Of a stretch of 64,000 nt of DNA, positions 9,001 to 64,000 are shown piece after piece. Every line of letters starts with the position of its first letter. Position 1 is the stretch's first letter. Made by a program: the position numbers. This DNA is from Octopus sinensis (Eukaryota), in NCBI RefSeq assembly GCF_006345805.1, contig NC_043001.1, positions 13,826,001-13,890,000 on the forward strand, read 5' to 3'.

Positions 9001-12000
9001 GGAATGTGTTTAGATATTTCTAAATTAGTTTCGAATTTTATACAAGAGATGTTCATTGCAGACGTAAGTAAAATCTTTTGTGGTTTCCATAAAAATATCT
9101 GGCTCATAGATGTATGTTTATATATATATAATATAGATCTATATAGGTAGATAGATAGATAGATAGATAGGTAGATAGATAGATAGACATGCACACTCTC
9201 TCACACACGGAAGCATATATGAGCATGCATATACACACACATACATATATATATATATATATATATATATATATAATATTAAATTAAATTAGAGATAAAA
9301 CCACTATTAGGCAAATCAAACAGTGAAAAACAGAAGCCAATACATAAAATTAATTTAAAAATATAAAATTTGAAAATTAAAAAATTATTTAAATAATTTA
9401 AACTTATAAATTTTAAATATATATATACAAATATATATATATTTGTATGTATGTATGTTTTTATATTTATATATGATTTTATTAATTAATTAATTAATTT
9501 TTTTTTATATAAATATCAAAAGTATTAAAAGTTTAATAAAAGATAAATATATATATATGTGTACACACACATTTATATATACGCACGTATATATGTATTC
9601 ACACACTAATATATGTATATACATACAAACACGTATATATATATATATATATATATATATATATATATATATAATATATATATATATAAACACACACACA
9701 CACTCACACACACATATATATATATGTATATATTTTATACACATACAGTGTGGCCCAAAAGTAGGATTACAGTAATCACGTAGGCACTTTAAATTTCTTT
9801 CAATACATTTCGTTAAATTTTACTTTCTATCTTACAATTAACTATATCAACATAGAATAAAGATTTAATTTTTTTTAGAAAGAACTAAATTTTCAATATA
9901 TATCAATATGTGACCGCGTGTGTATCGTTGGCGATTTCCTTTCTCCATCTTCTCTTCTTTGGACTCTTCTACATTTCTGACGAAGAGCTCCGCCCGAAAT
10001 GTAATATCCTCCTACTTTCTTTCCTTTCATGAGCGTCCAATAACACTATACATCTTCCACGTCCACGCGTTGTTGTGTTTTCTCTTTGTTCATGTTACTA
10101 TATATATATATATTTATATCTGTAAATGTAATATGACAATTATTCGGTAGCCATGATAAAACTCCGAGTTTCGGATGCCGAGGCGGAAAACCACGCCGCT
10201 ATCTCTTCAGTTATCCGGCCGTCAGAAAAATACTATGAAAAATTACCAAGTATTTTTCCGATGGCCGGATAACTGAAGAGATGGTGGCGTGGTTTTCCAC
10301 CTCGGCATCCGAAACTCGGAATTATATCATAGCTACGGAATAGTTGTCACATATGACATTTACAGATAAATTCATCTATTTACATAATATCGAGGTCTCT
10401 TTCATTCTTTTGTTGTCTTACCATTTTATCAATATCTCGGGATCTTTCTTTCTTTCTCTTATGTTTCCGACGAAGAGCTCCGCTCGAAACGTCATACCCT
10501 CCTTCTTCCATTTTCCTGAGCGCCTAATAATAATAATACTGTAATTGTTCCACGTGTTGTTGTTTTTTCTGTTTTCCCGTTTGGATTAACCTTATATATA
10601 TATATATTATATATATATATAACGTAAGGGGGATCAGCCATCTGAATGTGGCTAGGGACAGGGCGGGGTGGTGGGGGTGTTACTGATGCTTTTAGCCCCA
10701 GGCGATCATCAACGTCACCAGAAGGACTGACACCATATCAGTGTCCTTGTTTGCCTGTAAAGGGAGGTCATCCTCCCTCGAAGATACGGATACTACATAC
10801 GGACCGGTTTCGAGGTCATTGCCTCTTATCAACGTGTATCTTCGAGGGAGGATGACCTCCCTTTACAGGCAAACAAGGACACTGATATGGTGTCAGTCCT
10901 TCTGGTGACGTTGATGATCGCCTGGGGCTAAAAGCATCGGTAACACCCCCACCACCCCGCCCTGTCCCTAGCCACATTCAGATGGCTGATCCCCCTTACG
11001 TTGTCGAGCAGTTACTGTTTATATCTCGTTCAGAGATTTATTATTGTTTTATATATGATATATATATATATATATATATATATAATCTGTATGTGAACTT
11101 TAGTGTCGTTATAGTGAATCATTTTATTTCTTTCGAGTCTCTGCACTCGGAAAGCAATTACCTGCGAAGTCAACATACTTATTTGCCATTTTTTTCGGTG
11201 TAGGTAAAAAGGTGTGAAACACACGATTCTTGCGGTGGCAGTCGGTATGGCAAGCGGCATATGTTCTAATTCTTACATACAGATTTCCTAAACTAAATTC
11301 ATCAGCGATAAACAGTGAGACTCCAGACAGATTGCGACAGGGACATAGCGTTAATAATCTGGAAATCTGATTGACAGACAAACAGACAGACGGACAGATG
11401 GATGGATGGATGGATGAATGAAAAACACATAAATATATATATTATAAAACTGAAGAAAATGTTTTGAGAAAATATTTGCTTTTTTTTATCAAATTATGCT
11501 ATCGGTTTCCATTGTTGTACAAAATGATTTATTCATGTTGTAAGAGAAGGTAAAATAAAGTCAAATATATTAAATTATATTAACTGTTTAGTGATATAAG
11601 ATCTGGAAATTGCATTACGTTTCTCACAAAGTTCACAGAGCTGTGAGTTGTTCATAGTTCATGCTCAATGTAGGGTGTGTTGTGAGGCTTCTGAATTTAT
11701 CTAGATTTGGCAAACACAATTTGGTGGAGAAGCTCTCTTTACAACATCCTGATAATGGCTTCAATCGCAGTCCGTAGGATCTCGGCTGTACGTCTTCTAC
11801 CACTGCTTTAGATCTATTAAAGGTATGTGAATGGAACATGGTTGAGGTTAACTGAACATTCATAATCTATACGCGTGGTGTAAATTATTAATGTTCTGAG
11901 ATGATACGTTCAGCCTCGTTTAATGTAATCGCTCCAAATCTCCTTTTAGCCCATCTGTTGCTAAACTTCTAATATCCTCGGGCGACCAATTGCCTTATGA

Positions 12001-63000: not shown

Positions 63001-64000
63001 GCAATAAAGGGTTTAGCAACGAATTGCCTTACCACATACCGAATTTAGAAATAGCAGTCAAAGAGTTATAGCTATTCTTCTACTAAAAAGGGAGATCTCA
63101 GTAAAAACAGCTTGGAAGGCAGACACAAACAGGTAAGAGAGAATGAATTGACGGCAATCTATCATACAATTTTAAGTTATCTACGGACGCACGTTTCGAA
63201 ATCAAGTTTTTAGGAAAGCATAAGAATTAAATATTAAATAATTCTACCTTACCAAAACTTCTTTTCTCTTCAGCGTAGAATACTATAATCATAAATGATT
63301 ATATATTGAATTTTGAGATACTAGAAGGCACCAACTCAACTCAGTATCAGAGCGAGCTAGAATCCGCAACTAGTATCACCAAATTCAATGTGTGAATGAA
63401 AAGATTGTGTCACCAGCCCCTTCCCACCCGCGTGTAGCCAAAACAAGATGCTGTGGTCATCTACTGAGATAAAATATGGTTATCCGTAATAATGAAGTGT
63501 ATATATATATATATATACATACATATATATATATATATATAGAGAGAGAGAGAGAGAGAGAAAGAGAGAGAGAGAGTTCAATTTGACGACTCCACTAGAA
63601 TGGACGAAAGCGCTAATATATGATATACGATGTATAAAAACATGTAACATACAATAAATATCTGTAAATATAAAACCATCCGAACTTCTGAATACCTCTT
63701 CCTTCTAATATAAAATTACCTGTACATCATCTCCAAGCCTTCTAACACACACACACGCACACACACACACATACACACCACACACACACATATATATATA
63801 TATTATATATAATATATATTATATTATATATATATATATATCTATATATATATATATATGTATATATATATATATATAAAGTAAAAAAAAGTACTGGTTG
63901 TCTGGCATGGTTTGTCCGATGTTACATATATCGGACGGGTATGTTTGATTCTTAGTACTTTCAAATCTAAATCAGAAGAAATCTCTGAGCTGATGAAGGA

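What the first reader, a model, noticed from the sequence alone, without database searches (positions are those of the whole stretch)
9908..64000. A dispersed population of hammerhead-ribozyme, fold-back, (TA)n-targeted mini-retroelements from several unrelated families
Seen: about ten hammerhead cores with correctly pairing stems (10155-10215 -, its arm copy 10268-10328 +, 10467-10493 +, 10799-10835 -, 33969-34059 -, 36565-36655 +, 46277-46361 +, 47786-47873 +, 61202-61242 -, 63180-63279 -), plus CTGATGA at the window edge. Nearly all sit in short inserts within (TA)n that share one design (inverted arm, loop, direct arm, unpaired tail) despite unrelated sequences. Established: PLEs carry minimal type I hammerheads with short palindromic stem III in their pseudo-LTRs and often form inverted 5' pLTRs. 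Inference: these are extreme truncation products or self-propagating non-coding, retrozyme-like elements. At this density they would be a large source of self-cleaving and double-stranded RNA in the genome.
Basis: partly seen in the sequence, partly recalled or inferred. Interest (0 to 1): 0.9.

Follow-up and report, generated by a model that had tools for sequence, protein, structure and literature searches.

The report
Truncated Penelope-like retroelements carrying hammerhead motifs
Most of the hammerhead ribozyme motifs are real, but they sit in dead, shortened copies of Penelope-like retrotransposons inserted into TA repeats, a pattern already described in other animals.

Summary
The observation largely holds. 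A type I hammerhead descriptor with a self-complementary helix III finds 8 motifs on 7 inserts, against 0.05 expected in shuffles (0 of 200 shuffles reach 8). Three fail: both arms at 10155-10328, and 10467-10493. One motif was missed, at 37656-37764. Two motifs carry a U3/A8 core instead of C3/G8, a covariation already reported in PLE hammerheads.

Rfam gives nothing at gathering score. On short stretches Hammerhead_1 reaches 21.2 and 18.4 bits against a threshold of 34.

The "one design" of inverted arm, loop, direct arm and one-sided tail occurs in 5 of 10 hammerhead-bearing or hammerhead-like inserts, plus one insert with no hammerhead. It is the published insertion signature of Penelope-like elements. 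The largest insert holds a GIY-YIG endonuclease ORF upstream of its hammerhead. No reverse transcriptase is detectable in the window.

The two families with more than one copy have different 5' ends, which favours dead truncated copies over self-propagating mini-elements. The host is probably an octopus. This is a new member of a known kind, of modest interest.

The parts
9908..10099 (+). Insert B1. Plain insert ending at a (TA)n run, with a decayed hammerhead-like stretch near 9977 (CTGACGA, one unpaired A, mismatched helix II, no helix I).
   Evidence: 76% identity to B2 over 115 nt. Fails the descriptors.
10117..10394 (+). Insert A. Fold-back 10117-10368 (87% self-complementary) plus a short tail on the right, of uncertain end. 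Hammerhead-like motifs in both arms (10155-10215 -, 10268-10328 +) fail the descriptor.
   Evidence: Rfam finds only generic hairpin models.
10395..10590 (+). Insert B2. Plain insert ending at (TA)n. The hammerhead-like stretch 10467-10493 has a mutated core (CCGACGA).
10621..11057 (.). Insert C. Two head-to-head copies. The minus copy runs 10835 to 10621 and includes the hammerhead. The plus copy is 10836-11002, followed by a tail at 11003-11057. The arms are 167 nt and 99% identical.
10799..10835 (-). Hammerhead motif of C. U3/A8 core (TTGATAA), helix I 3 bp, helix II 4 bp, helix III ACCGGT, cleavage after C.
   Evidence: The U3-A8 variant is known.
33820..36690 (.). Insert D. The long minus-strand copy runs from about 36453 down to 33934 and is followed by its tail, 33933 down to 33820. 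The short plus-strand copy is 36454-36690. The arms are 237 nt and 98% identical, and (TA)n lies at both ends.
33969..34059 (-). Hammerhead motif, D left arm. CTGATGA, helix I 6 bp, long helix II, helix III ACGATTGT, cleavage after A.
36565..36655 (+). Hammerhead motif, D right arm. It differs from the left-arm copy by one base in the helix II loop.
   Evidence: Rfam Hammerhead_1 18.4 bits.
35527..36489 (-). Open frame of 320 aa inside D. The N-terminal part is rich in asparagine. The C-terminal part holds a cysteine motif and a GIY-YIG endonuclease domain. It has the same orientation as the tailed copy and lies about 1.47 kb upstream of that copy's hammerhead.
   Evidence: Pfam GIY-YIG 18.5 bits, E 0.0025, below the 22.6 cut-off; 78% identity to an Octopus sinensis protein; 3508 relatives..
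37391..37869 (+). Insert E. Plain insert between two microsatellites.
37656..37764 (+). CTGAAGA, helix I 3 bp, helix II 4 bp at the base of a long hairpin, helix III ACGATCGT.
   Evidence: No Rfam hit.
44893..45310 (.). Insert J. It has the same design but no hammerhead. Tail 44893-44986; arms 44987-45106 and 45192-45310 (97%); an 85-nt loop with a 42-nt palindrome. It is related to I.
45857..46400 (.). Insert F, related to D. Tail 45857-45954. Short inverted copy about 45955-46000. A 105-nt palindrome at 45996-46100. Plus-strand copy up to about 46398, followed by (TC)n(TA)n.
   Evidence: tail 84% and last 150 nt 76% identical to D.
46277..46361 (+). Hammerhead motif of F. CTGATGA, helix I 4 bp, helix III ACAATTGT.
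47606..47986 (+). Insert G. Fold-back 47606-47909 (87%) plus tail 47910-47986, with (TA)n on both sides.
47786..47873 (+). Hammerhead motif of G. CTGAAGA, helix I 4 bp, A opposite A at the base of helix II, helix III ACATATGT. The copy in the other arm (47641-47728, -) has a broken helix I.
   Evidence: No Rfam hit.
61036..61558 (-). Insert H. A partial head-to-tail tandem with a 345-nt period; direct repeats 61032-61176 and 61377-61521 (92%). It is flanked by a 17-nt duplicated target-like sequence (61019-61035 and 61559-61575, 16 of 17 identical). It is not in (TA)n.
61201..61243 (-). Hammerhead motif of H. U3/A8 core (TTGATAA), helix I 6 bp, helix II 4 bp, helix III ACTAGT.
   Evidence: No Rfam hit.
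62999..63499 (-). Insert I. Plain 501-nt insert between two (TA)n runs.
63180..63279 (-). Hammerhead motif of I. CTGAAGA, helix I 6 bp, helix III ACGTGCGT, cleavage after C.
   Evidence: Rfam Hammerhead_1 21.2 bits over the whole model.
63879..64000 (+). Insert K. It starts after a (TA)n run and has CTGATGA at the window edge. It cannot be judged.

Best explanation
These are dead, 5'-truncated insertions of several diverged lineages of hammerhead-bearing Penelope-like retrotransposons (PLEs) that landed in (TA)n microsatellites.

The hammerheads are the minimal type I kind that PLEs carry close to the 3' boundary of their repeat unit. They have a short open helix I, a long helix II and a self-complementary helix III that can pair only between two copies.

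The fold-back shape is a footprint of insertion, not a functional design. The inferred mechanism runs as follows:
- The PLE enzyme cuts both strands of the target and primes cDNA on both.
- Reverse transcription starts at either of two sites in the RNA.
- This leaves two copies head to head, each with its 3' end against the TA repeat.
- One copy keeps the stretch between the two start sites (the 'tail'); the other lacks it.
- The copies are cut short at variable 5' points and joined in the middle, sometimes through a small snap-back palindrome.

The hammerheads are carried along passively.

What is shown: the motifs, the arms, the tails, the TA flanks, the endonuclease ORF and the variable 5' ends. 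What is inferred: the insertion mechanism (taken from published work on an Anolis PLE), the dimeric action of the ribozymes, and that the copies are inactive.
For: (1) The motifs exceed chance: 8 observed against 0.05 expected, with 0 of 200 shuffles reaching 8. Scrambled control cores give 0 hits.

(2) Some agreement with the hammerhead consensus was not forced by the descriptor. All 7 distinct motifs have A-U followed by C-G as the first two pairs of helix III. Helices I and II use 2 to 4 different pair types per position. The Rfam type I model aligns end to end at the same coordinates for I and D.

(3) Helix III is self-complementary, 6-8 nt, in 8 of 8 motifs. Unconstrained cofolding gives the complete double-hammerhead as the minimum-energy structure for G, H and I, and helix II plus an intermolecular helix III for F. 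That is 4 of the 11 sequences folded.

(4) Published PLE features match:
- Helix III is minimal or short and palindromic, and the ribozymes probably act as dimers.
- Helix II is long and helix I short.
- Paired motifs lie 100-700 bp apart on opposite strands.
- Single motifs are read as truncated PLEs.
- The core shows a U3-A8 covariation.
These come from passages of PMC4209133 and PMC6765202.

(5) The insertion signature also matches: 5' truncation, partial tandems, an adjacent inverted 5'-truncated copy, a tail at one end only, and (TA)n targets (passages of PMC8557442). The enzyme cleaves and extends both strands, and two internal start sites of reverse transcription delimit the tail and lie shortly downstream of the hammerhead (passages of PMC11167929). 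In this window six inserts (A, C, D, F, G, J) have arms plus a one-sided tail. The cleavage site lies 40-187 nt upstream of the arm end (my count).

(6) Insert D carries a GIY-YIG endonuclease ORF in the orientation of its tailed copy. Relatives of 600-800 aa have this domain at the C-terminus, behind a region with a YRDD motif and, in one of them, a weak RVT_1 match (E 0.019).

(7) 5' ends vary within the D/F and I/J families.

(8) 15 of 22 insert ends lie within 15 bp of a (TA)>=6 run, against 5.3% of window positions.
Against: - No reverse transcriptase is detectable anywhere in the window. A profile of the relatives' RT region scores no better than E=3 on 1617 six-frame pieces, and 10 long ORFs have no RT domain. 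The PLE link therefore rests on one endonuclease ORF, whose Pfam score is below the cut-off, and on structural signatures.
- The 10 relatives scanned have no Pfam family at E<=0.001, so calling them RT-EN proteins rests on a motif read by eye and one weak hit.
- Rfam does not recognise any motif at its gathering score, and gives nothing at all for 4 of the 6 stretches tested.
- The tails are about 26-114 nt, longer than the published 30-40 bp.
- Six of the nine sequence groups are single copies, so their 5' ends cannot be compared.
- In A and G the two arms meet at the same point, 25-28 nt upstream of the hammerhead. In C the longer copy starts exactly at the hammerhead. This could reflect a defined short template rather than random truncation.
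- Nothing was tested at the bench, and no other sequence of this genome could be searched.
Confidence: 0.75

Rival explanations
1. Some or all of the short families (A, C, E, G, H, I) are dedicated non-coding elements. They would consist of a hammerhead, a short 3' recognition module and a tail, and would be copied in trans by a PLE enzyme. That makes them dispersed relatives of the animal non-LTR retrozymes.
For: - The inserts are small (278-501 nt) and non-coding.
- In A and G both arms end at the same 5' point, 25-28 nt upstream of the hammerhead. In C the longer copy begins at the hammerhead.
- The spacing from cleavage site to arm end is 40-45 nt in A, D, F and G, although A and G are unrelated to D/F by blastn.
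- H is a 345-nt partial tandem with a long target duplication, as described for retrozymes.
- The tail is better conserved between D and F (84%) than the body (76%).
- A 2026 preprint argues from its abstract that animal retrozymes derive from PLE pseudo-LTRs.
Against: - No insert has two hammerheads in direct orientation or a tandem of hammerhead-bearing monomers. H has 1.4 units and one hammerhead.
- 5' ends differ in both families that have more than one copy.
- D carries a coding remnant.
- Equal arm lengths in A and G follow automatically if the cDNA snapped back on itself.
- No second copy of A, C, E, G or H exists in the window for comparison.
Confidence: 0.18
2. The fold-backs are miniature inverted-repeat DNA transposons that target TA. 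The hammerhead-like motifs in them have no relation to retrotransposition.
For: - A, C and G are almost entirely self-complementary (87-99%) and lie between TA repeats.
- Rfam sees them only as generic long hairpins.
- Other fold-back elements without hammerheads occur in the window at 1467-2039 and 6784-7406.
Against: - The inverted repeats are not terminal. A stretch of 26-114 nt with no partner lies beyond one arm only, in 6 of 6 fold-backs.
- The arms of F are only about 40 nt, while the unpaired parts are conserved with D.
- Four hammerhead inserts have no inverted repeat at all.
- The hammerhead motifs exceed chance by more than a hundredfold.
- D holds a GIY-YIG ORF, not a transposase.
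Confidence: 0.04
3. The motifs are chance matches in AT-rich repetitive DNA.
For: There is no Rfam hit at gathering score. The strict U3/A8 search alone is not significant: 1 observed, and 21 of 100 shuffles reach it.
Against: - 8 motifs are observed against 0.05 expected, and 0 of 200 shuffles reach 8.
- Eight scrambled cores give 0 hits.
- C15.2-G16.2 is present in 7 of 7 motifs without being required by the descriptor.
- The Rfam type I model aligns end to end at identical coordinates for two motifs.
- The two U3/A8 motifs share the same 7-nt core but differ in all three helices.
Confidence: 0.01

Closest known systems
Minimal type I hammerheads of Penelope-like elements (Cervera & de la Pena 2014, PMC4209133, passages read; Lunse, Weinberg & Breaker, RNA Biol, seen only as a reference in PMC6765202)
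   Same: - Type I topology.
- Short helix I (3-6 bp).
- Long helix II.
- Helix III reduced to a 6-8 nt self-complementary stretch that can pair only in a dimer.
- A U3/A8 core variant.
- Motifs found singly or as pairs on opposite strands a few hundred bp apart.
- Massive sequence heterogeneity between families.
   Different: - Helix II here is often very long, with 54-80 nt between its base pairs.
- Only one motif (G) needs unpaired bases at the base of helix II.
- The host is probably a cephalopod. My searches found no description of hammerhead-bearing PLEs in cephalopods, but supplements could not be read.
- Cleavage was not tested.
PLE insertion architecture: pseudo-LTR, inverted 5'-truncated copy, one-sided tail, microsatellite target (Craig et al. 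2021, PMC8557442; Frangieh et al. 2024, PMC11167929; passages read)
   Same: - Head-to-head copies with 3' ends outward.
- A tail on one side only.
- Variable 5' truncation.
- (TA)n targets.
- One partial head-to-tail tandem (H).
- The hammerhead lies shortly upstream of the unit's 3' boundary.
- GIY-YIG endonuclease (insert D).
   Different: - Tails are about 26-114 nt rather than 30-40 bp.
- There is no full-length element and no reverse transcriptase in the window.
- The (TA)n bias was described in the passages I read for Naiads, which lack canonical hammerheads, whereas these inserts have them.
- The clade of the endonuclease was not determined.
Animal non-LTR retrozymes (Cervera & de la Pena 2020, PMC7229834, passages; Li, Clavereau & Pollet 2026 preprint, abstract only)
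   Same: Short non-coding units with a type I hammerhead, low GC content, co-occurrence with PLEs and a proposed PLE origin. H has a 345-nt period and a long target duplication.
   Different: Retrozymes are head-to-tail tandems of 170-400-nt monomers, each with a hammerhead, expressed as circular RNA. Here no insert has two hammerheads in direct orientation, and most are inverted pairs or single truncated copies.
Rfam Hammerhead_1 (RF00163)
   Same: The core, the three-helix layout and the C-G pair next to A15.1-U16.1. The model aligns over its full length at two motifs.
   Different: The scores of 21.2 and 18.4 bits are below the gathering score of 34. Four other stretches give no match.

Membership tests
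Hammerhead ribozyme, type I (Rfam RF00163) | Conserved core CUGANGA ... GAAA ... U-H (motif recalled; matches the consensus printed) | tested here: met
   6 motif instances have the canonical core (D twice, E, F, G, I). 2 have the U3/A8 covariant (C, H). A has the core but fails on the helices. B2 has a mutated core.
Hammerhead ribozyme, type I (Rfam RF00163) | Three helices around the core, with the open end in helix I | tested here: met
   8 motifs meet the descriptor, against 0.05 expected.
Hammerhead ribozyme, type I (Rfam RF00163) | Score at or above Rfam's gathering threshold (34 bits) | tested here: not met
   0 hits at gathering score. The best scores on short stretches are 21.2 and 18.4 bits. 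There is none for H, G, E or A.
Hammerhead ribozyme, type I (Rfam RF00163) | Site-specific self-cleavage after H17 | not testable with these tools
   This needs in vitro transcription of monomer and dimer constructs.
PLE-associated minimal hammerhead | Helix III absent or very short and palindromic, so that activity needs a dimer | tested here: met
   Helix III is self-complementary (6-8 nt) in 8 of 8 motifs. Cofold gives an intermolecular helix III in the minimum-energy structure for F, G, H, I and others. Dimeric activity itself was not tested.
PLE-associated minimal hammerhead | Long helix II, short helix I, often an unpaired base at the 5' end of helix II | tested here: inconclusive
   Helix I is 3-6 bp, and helix II is a long hairpin in 6 of 8 motifs. 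An unpaired base is seen only in G and in the failed B copies.
PLE-associated minimal hammerhead | Location in the pseudo-LTR of an element that encodes RT and GIY-YIG endonuclease | tested here: inconclusive
   D has a GIY-YIG ORF about 1.47 kb upstream of its hammerhead in the same orientation. No RT is found in the window. The other inserts are non-coding.
Penelope-like element insertion | ORF with reverse transcriptase and GIY-YIG endonuclease | tested here: inconclusive
   The endonuclease is present (Pfam 18.5 bits, below the 22.6 cut-off; 3508 relatives). RT is absent from the window. Longer relatives carry a YRDD motif, and one has a weak RVT_1 match.
Penelope-like element insertion | Variable 5' truncation with an adjacent inverted 5'-truncated copy | tested here: met
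   Six inserts (A, C, D, F, G, J) have inverted arms of 37-237 nt. 5' ends differ within the D/F and I/J families.
Penelope-like element insertion | [quoted passage not shown] | tested here: met
   An unpaired stretch lies beyond one arm only in 6 of 6 fold-backs. The tails of D and F are 84% identical. Their lengths of about 26-114 nt exceed the published 30-40 bp.
Penelope-like element insertion | Partial head-to-tail tandem forming a pseudo-LTR | tested here: met
   Seen only in H: direct repeats of 145 nt at 92% identity, with a 345-nt period.
Penelope-like element insertion | Insertion bias for microsatellites, (TA)n | tested here: met
   15 of 22 ends lie within 15 bp of a (TA)>=6 run, against 5.3% of window positions. 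The test is partly circular for boundaries that I set by eye.
Animal non-LTR retrozyme | Head-to-tail tandem of about 170-400-nt monomers, each with a type I hammerhead | tested here: not met
   0 of 11 inserts have two hammerheads in direct orientation. H has 1.4 units and one hammerhead.
Animal non-LTR retrozyme | Expression as small circular RNA | not testable with these tools
   No transcriptome data are available.
MITE / fold-back DNA transposon | Inverted repeats at both termini, flanked by a target duplication | tested here: not met
   One arm is always followed by an unpaired tail before the flank. A target duplication cannot be read inside (TA)n.

The most novel reading that the evidence does not exclude
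Some of the short families (A, C, G, and perhaps E, H, I) may not be random truncations. They could be dedicated non-coding parasites of PLEs: a 'PLE-SINE' made of a hammerhead, a 40-190-nt 3' recognition module and a tail, with a defined 5' end just upstream of the ribozyme. They would be dispersed, monomeric cousins of the tandem retrozymes, and their head-to-head insertion would be a regular outcome of two-strand priming on a short template.
Probability: 0.15. Interest if true: 0.5.

Novelty: new member of a known kind. Interest (0 to 1): 0.25.

Why it matters
This window is a clean worked example of several things:
- Nine blastn-distinct groups of PLE-type inserts occur in 54 kb.
- Both core variants of the PLE hammerhead are present.
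- All three published insertion layouts appear side by side: inverted pair with a one-sided tail, plain truncation and partial tandem.

For genome annotation, fold-backs in (TA)n in this genome should be masked as PLE debris. They should not be called as MITEs or microRNA hairpins, although Rfam microRNA models score them at up to 76 bits. Hammerhead searches at Rfam thresholds miss all of them.

The tails of about 26-114 nt and the small palindromes at the 5' junctions could help in working out how PLE insertions are resolved. None of this changes what is already known about these elements.

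Tried and rejected
- Rfam over the whole window gave no hammerhead family at gathering score or at E<=10. Only searches of 110-206-nt stretches recovered Hammerhead_1, in 2 of 6 stretches.
- A scan that allowed one defect in core, GAAA or palindrome, with helix I >=4 bp, found 6 motifs. 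All were already known and all had zero defects. The shuffle part of that script crashed and was not repeated.
- ARAGORN found no tRNA.
- Coding capacity. 29 stop-to-stop ORFs of >=120 aa were listed. I gave 10 of the 29 to Pfam and none was RT-like.
- A PDB sequence search with the endonuclease gave 0 hits.
- The word-index protein search found 1 relative of near length and none longer.
- Pfam on 10 of the 150 listed relatives gave 0 families at E<=0.001. At E<=10, 3 of them gave only weak GIY-YIG and one weak RVT_1 hit.
- Assigning the endonuclease to a PLE clade was not attempted. Its cysteine motif does not obviously fit the CX2-5CxxC form quoted.
- I first thought a shared terminal motif linked the D, I and J tails. 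The alignment does not support it, so I dropped it.
- I considered whether any copy starts at a hammerhead cleavage site, which would point to a self-cleaved template. None does. The nearest 5' ends are 15 nt downstream (C, plus-strand copy) and 16 nt upstream (F, tailed copy).

Not done:
The phage, plasmid and E. coli collections are irrelevant here.
- Supplementary files of the papers are closed. Supplementary figures of PMC4209133 and supplementary file S1 of PMC8557442 may list mollusc or cephalopod PLE hammerheads that I could not see.
- No structure prediction, complex prediction or covariance model was run.

Full report
What is there.

The window has no N, is about 35% GC and is full of (TA)n runs; I count 46 merged runs of (TA)>=6.

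I searched for type I hammerheads with my own descriptors. The hammerhead pattern and its numbering are recalled; they agree with the RF00163 consensus printed. A strict version (helix I >=4 bp, CUGANGA, helix II >=3 bp, GAAA, helix III >=2 bp, U then a non-G) finds four motifs. The mean in 100 block-wise dinucleotide shuffles is 0.06, and none of the 100 reaches four. Eight scrambled cores of the same composition give no hit, although they occur 10-22 times each in the window, against 34 for the real core.

A second version asks instead that the stretch from A15.1 to U16.1 be self-complementary. It allows one unpaired base on either side of helix II and accepts either the C3/G8 or the U3/A8 core. 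It finds eight motifs, against a mean of 0.05, and 0 of 200 shuffles reach eight:
- C: 10799-10835 (-)
- D, both arms: 33969-34059 (-) and 36565-36655 (+)
- E: 37656-37764 (+)
- F: 46277-46361 (+)
- G: 47786-47873 (+)
- H: 61201-61243 (-)
- I: 63180-63279 (-)

E is new.

They have three contiguous pairs in helix II, an extra C before GAAA and a 9-nt near-palindrome, and one arm has lost helix I. The motif at 10467-10493 has a mutated core and no helix I. The CTGATGA at the window edge is cut off.

Independent support for the motifs.

- Rfam gives nothing at gathering score and no hammerhead family at E<=10 on the whole window.
- On short stretches its type I model aligns over its full length at exactly my coordinates for I (21.2 bits) and D (18.4 bits). 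Both scores are below the gathering score of 34.
- It finds nothing for H, G, E or the 10140-10345 fold-back.
- All seven distinct motifs have A-U followed by C-G as the first two pairs of helix III. The descriptor did not demand this, and it is the Rfam consensus. The other helix positions use two to four pair types each, although pairing itself was required by the search.
- Unconstrained cofolding of two copies gives the complete double-hammerhead as the minimum-energy structure for G, H and I: helix II within each strand, helices I and III between strands. For F it gives helix II plus an intermolecular helix III. In total 11 sequences were folded.

Anatomy of the inserts.

I recognise eleven inserts plus one that is cut by the window edge.

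Six consist of two head-to-head copies whose 3' ends face outward, with an extra unpaired stretch (a tail) beyond one arm only:

| Insert | Arms or fold-back | Identity | Tail |
|---|---|---|---|
| A | fold-back 10117-10368 | 87% | short, to about 10394 |
| C | arms 10621-10787 / 10836-11002 | 99% | 11003-11057 |
| D | arms 33934-34170 / 36454-36690, 2283 nt between | 98% | 33820-33933 |
| F | arms about 45955-46000 / 46337-46398 | 92% (37 nt aligned) | 45857-45954 |
| G | fold-back 47606-47909 | 87% | 47910-47986 |
| J | arms 44987-45106 / 45192-45310, no hammerhead | 97% | 44893-44986 |

In C a 48-nt stretch between the arms holds the hammerhead.

Four inserts are plain: B1, B2, E and I. One, H, is a partial head-to-tail tandem with a 345-nt period and 145-nt direct repeats at 92% identity. 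H is flanked by a 17-nt duplication (16 of 17 identical) and lies away from any (TA)n.

Fifteen of 22 insert ends lie within 15 bp of a (TA)>=6 run, against 5.3% of window positions. Some boundaries were set by eye at the TA run, so this test is partly circular. The arm ends given by blastn for C, D, G and J are independent of that.

By blastn the inserts fall into the groups {D,F}, {I,J} and {B1,B2} and the singletons A, C, E, G, H and K.

The hammerhead cleavage site lies 40-45 nt upstream of the arm end in A, D, F and G, 108 nt in E, and 181-187 nt in C and I (my count).

Coding content.

No ORF of >=120 aa that I scanned (10 of 29) has a reverse transcriptase domain.

Inside D, on the strand of its tailed copy, a 320-aa open frame (36489 down to 35527) ends in a cysteine motif and a GIY-YIG domain:
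- Pfam scores it 18.5 bits, E 0.0025, below the 22.6 cut-off.
- It is 78% identical to a 205-aa Octopus sinensis protein. The source's name for that protein, 'myelin gene regulatory factor-like A', looks like a misannotation.
- It has 3508 relatives at E<=0.001 and 884 at E<=1e-10 in the representative library.
- The Atlas places it among clusters named GIY-YIG domain-containing protein.
- The GIY, YIG, R, H and C..C..E positions are invariant in an alignment with five relatives.

Three relatives of 628-806 aa carry the domain at the C-terminus, behind a region with a YRDD motif. One of them has a weak RVT_1 match (E 0.019). One has an asparagine-rich linker like that of the window ORF. Atlas clusters near that region carry RVT_1 in 16-25% of members.

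A profile of that region finds nothing in the window's 1617 six-frame pieces (best E=3). So the window holds one endonuclease remnant and no reverse transcriptase.

Comparison with what is known.

Passages of Cervera & de la Pena 2014 (PMC4209133) describe PLE hammerheads as type I, with:
- a long helix II and a short helix I;
- often an unpaired base at the 5' end of helix II;
- helix III absent, or short and palindromic, so that they probably act as dimers;
- low activity in vitro.

These motifs occur in the flanking repeats of PLEs, as pairs 100-700 bp apart on opposite strands, and mostly as single motifs 'probably related to truncated PLEs'. A U3-A8 covariation in the core gave about 1,300 hits in Schistosoma mansoni. 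A review (PMC6765202) says the same and cites Lunse, Weinberg and Breaker for dimeric cleavage; I saw that paper only as a reference.

Passages of Craig et al. 2021 (PMC8557442) describe PLE insertions as follows:
- They are heavily 5'-truncated.
- They often form partial tandems, the pseudo-LTR.
- A 30-40-bp tail is often present at one end only.
- (TA)n microsatellites are a preferred target of Naiads.

Passages of Frangieh et al. 2024 (PMC11167929) report four things about a purified Anolis PLE protein:
- It cleaves and extends both target strands.
- Reverse transcription starts at two adjacent internal sites of the RNA, and the stretch between them is the tail.
- The hammerhead lies shortly upstream of those sites.
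- Hammerhead mutations did not affect RNA insertion in vitro.

Most likely mechanism.

Each insert is one PLE retrotransposition event into a TA repeat. Both strands of the target were used as primers. One cDNA began at the distal start site and kept the tail; the other began at the proximal site and lacks it. Both were cut short at variable points and joined head to head.

Near-perfect palindromes occur at the 5' junctions: 45101-45142 (42 nt, 95%), 45996-46100 (105 nt, 78.5%) and 61535-61563 (30 nt, 93%). Together with the zero-loop symmetry of A and G, they suggest that snap-back of the nascent cDNA contributes. All of this paragraph is inference.

The copies look dead:
- They lack coding capacity.
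- 5' ends differ within the two families that have more than one copy. For D/F the lengths are about 46, 237, about 300 and at least 2634 nt; for I/J they are 501 and 120 nt.
- Arm identities range from 87% to 99%, which implies a range of ages.

What remains open.

Six groups are single copies, so I cannot tell whether their 5' ends are fixed. A and G end 25-28 nt upstream of the hammerhead in both arms, and the longer copy of C starts at the hammerhead itself. This leaves room for short dedicated templates mobilised in trans. A 2026 preprint (abstract only) argues that animal retrozymes are such PLE derivatives. The defining retrozyme layout, tandem monomers each with a hammerhead, is not met by any insert here.

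The DNA-transposon reading fails on the one-sided tail and on the inserts that have no inverted repeat. The chance reading fails on the shuffles.

Self-cleavage, expression, double-stranded RNA output and genome-wide density were not testable.

Verdict.

They are best read as debris of PLE insertions, not as a new class of mini-retroelement. This is a new member of a known kind, in what is probably an octopus genome.

Noticed in passing
window 45101-45142, 45996-46100, 61535-61563: Short near-perfect palindromes (42 nt at 95%, 105 nt at 78.5%, 30 nt at 93%) sit at the 5' junctions of inserts J, F and H. They may be snap-back products of the cDNA end or tiny nested fold-backs.
   Followed up: partly
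window 35527-36489 (-): The 320-aa frame with the GIY-YIG domain is uninterrupted although the element is truncated. Its N-terminal 170 aa are asparagine-rich low-complexity sequence. Its closest relative is named 'myelin gene regulatory factor-like A' in Octopus sinensis, which looks like a transposon-derived ORF given a host-gene name.
   Followed up: partly
window 10160-10368, 33934-34020, 36649-36690, 46357-46398, 47869-47909: The distance from the predicted cleavage site to the arm end is 40-45 nt in A, D, F and G, although A and G show no blastn similarity to D/F. It may reflect a conserved spacing between the hammerhead and the proximal start site of reverse transcription.
   Followed up: no
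window 1467-2039 and 6784-7406 (also 1731-2066 / 6696-7031): There are two copies of a fold-back element with about 190-200-nt inverted arms (91-93%). Each encloses degenerate telomere-like repeats (20-nt units containing TTAGGG-like motifs, at 1710-1773 and 6989-7032). No hammerhead was found in them.
   Followed up: no
window 5271-5812, 42180-42736, 48624-48987, 52020-52374: Tandem arrays of 2-3 units of 180-184 nt. The unit at 52020 begins with a tRNA-like head; the box A and box B resemblance is recalled, and ARAGORN calls no tRNA. They look like SINE copies arranged in tandem. Related units form the long inverted repeats 42365-42786 / 48571-48992.
   Followed up: no
window 16633-17467: A block of degenerate tandem repeats (periods 13, 24, 37 and 61-63 nt) built on a palindromic GAAAATTTTC-like unit. 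Next to it lies a 32-nt repeat, 3.9 copies at 98% identity, at 16790-16913.
   Followed up: no
window 10163-10318 and 47682-47835: Rfam plant microRNA precursor models (MIR4371 and others) score the PLE fold-backs at 65-77 bits, below their gathering scores. Hairpin-based microRNA prediction in this genome would be misled by such inserts.
   Followed up: yes
window 58724-59413 (+): A 229-aa open frame with weak, sub-threshold Pfam matches to a CCHC zinc knuckle (E 0.028) and Ephrin (E 0.0017). It may be a remnant of another retroelement.
   Followed up: no
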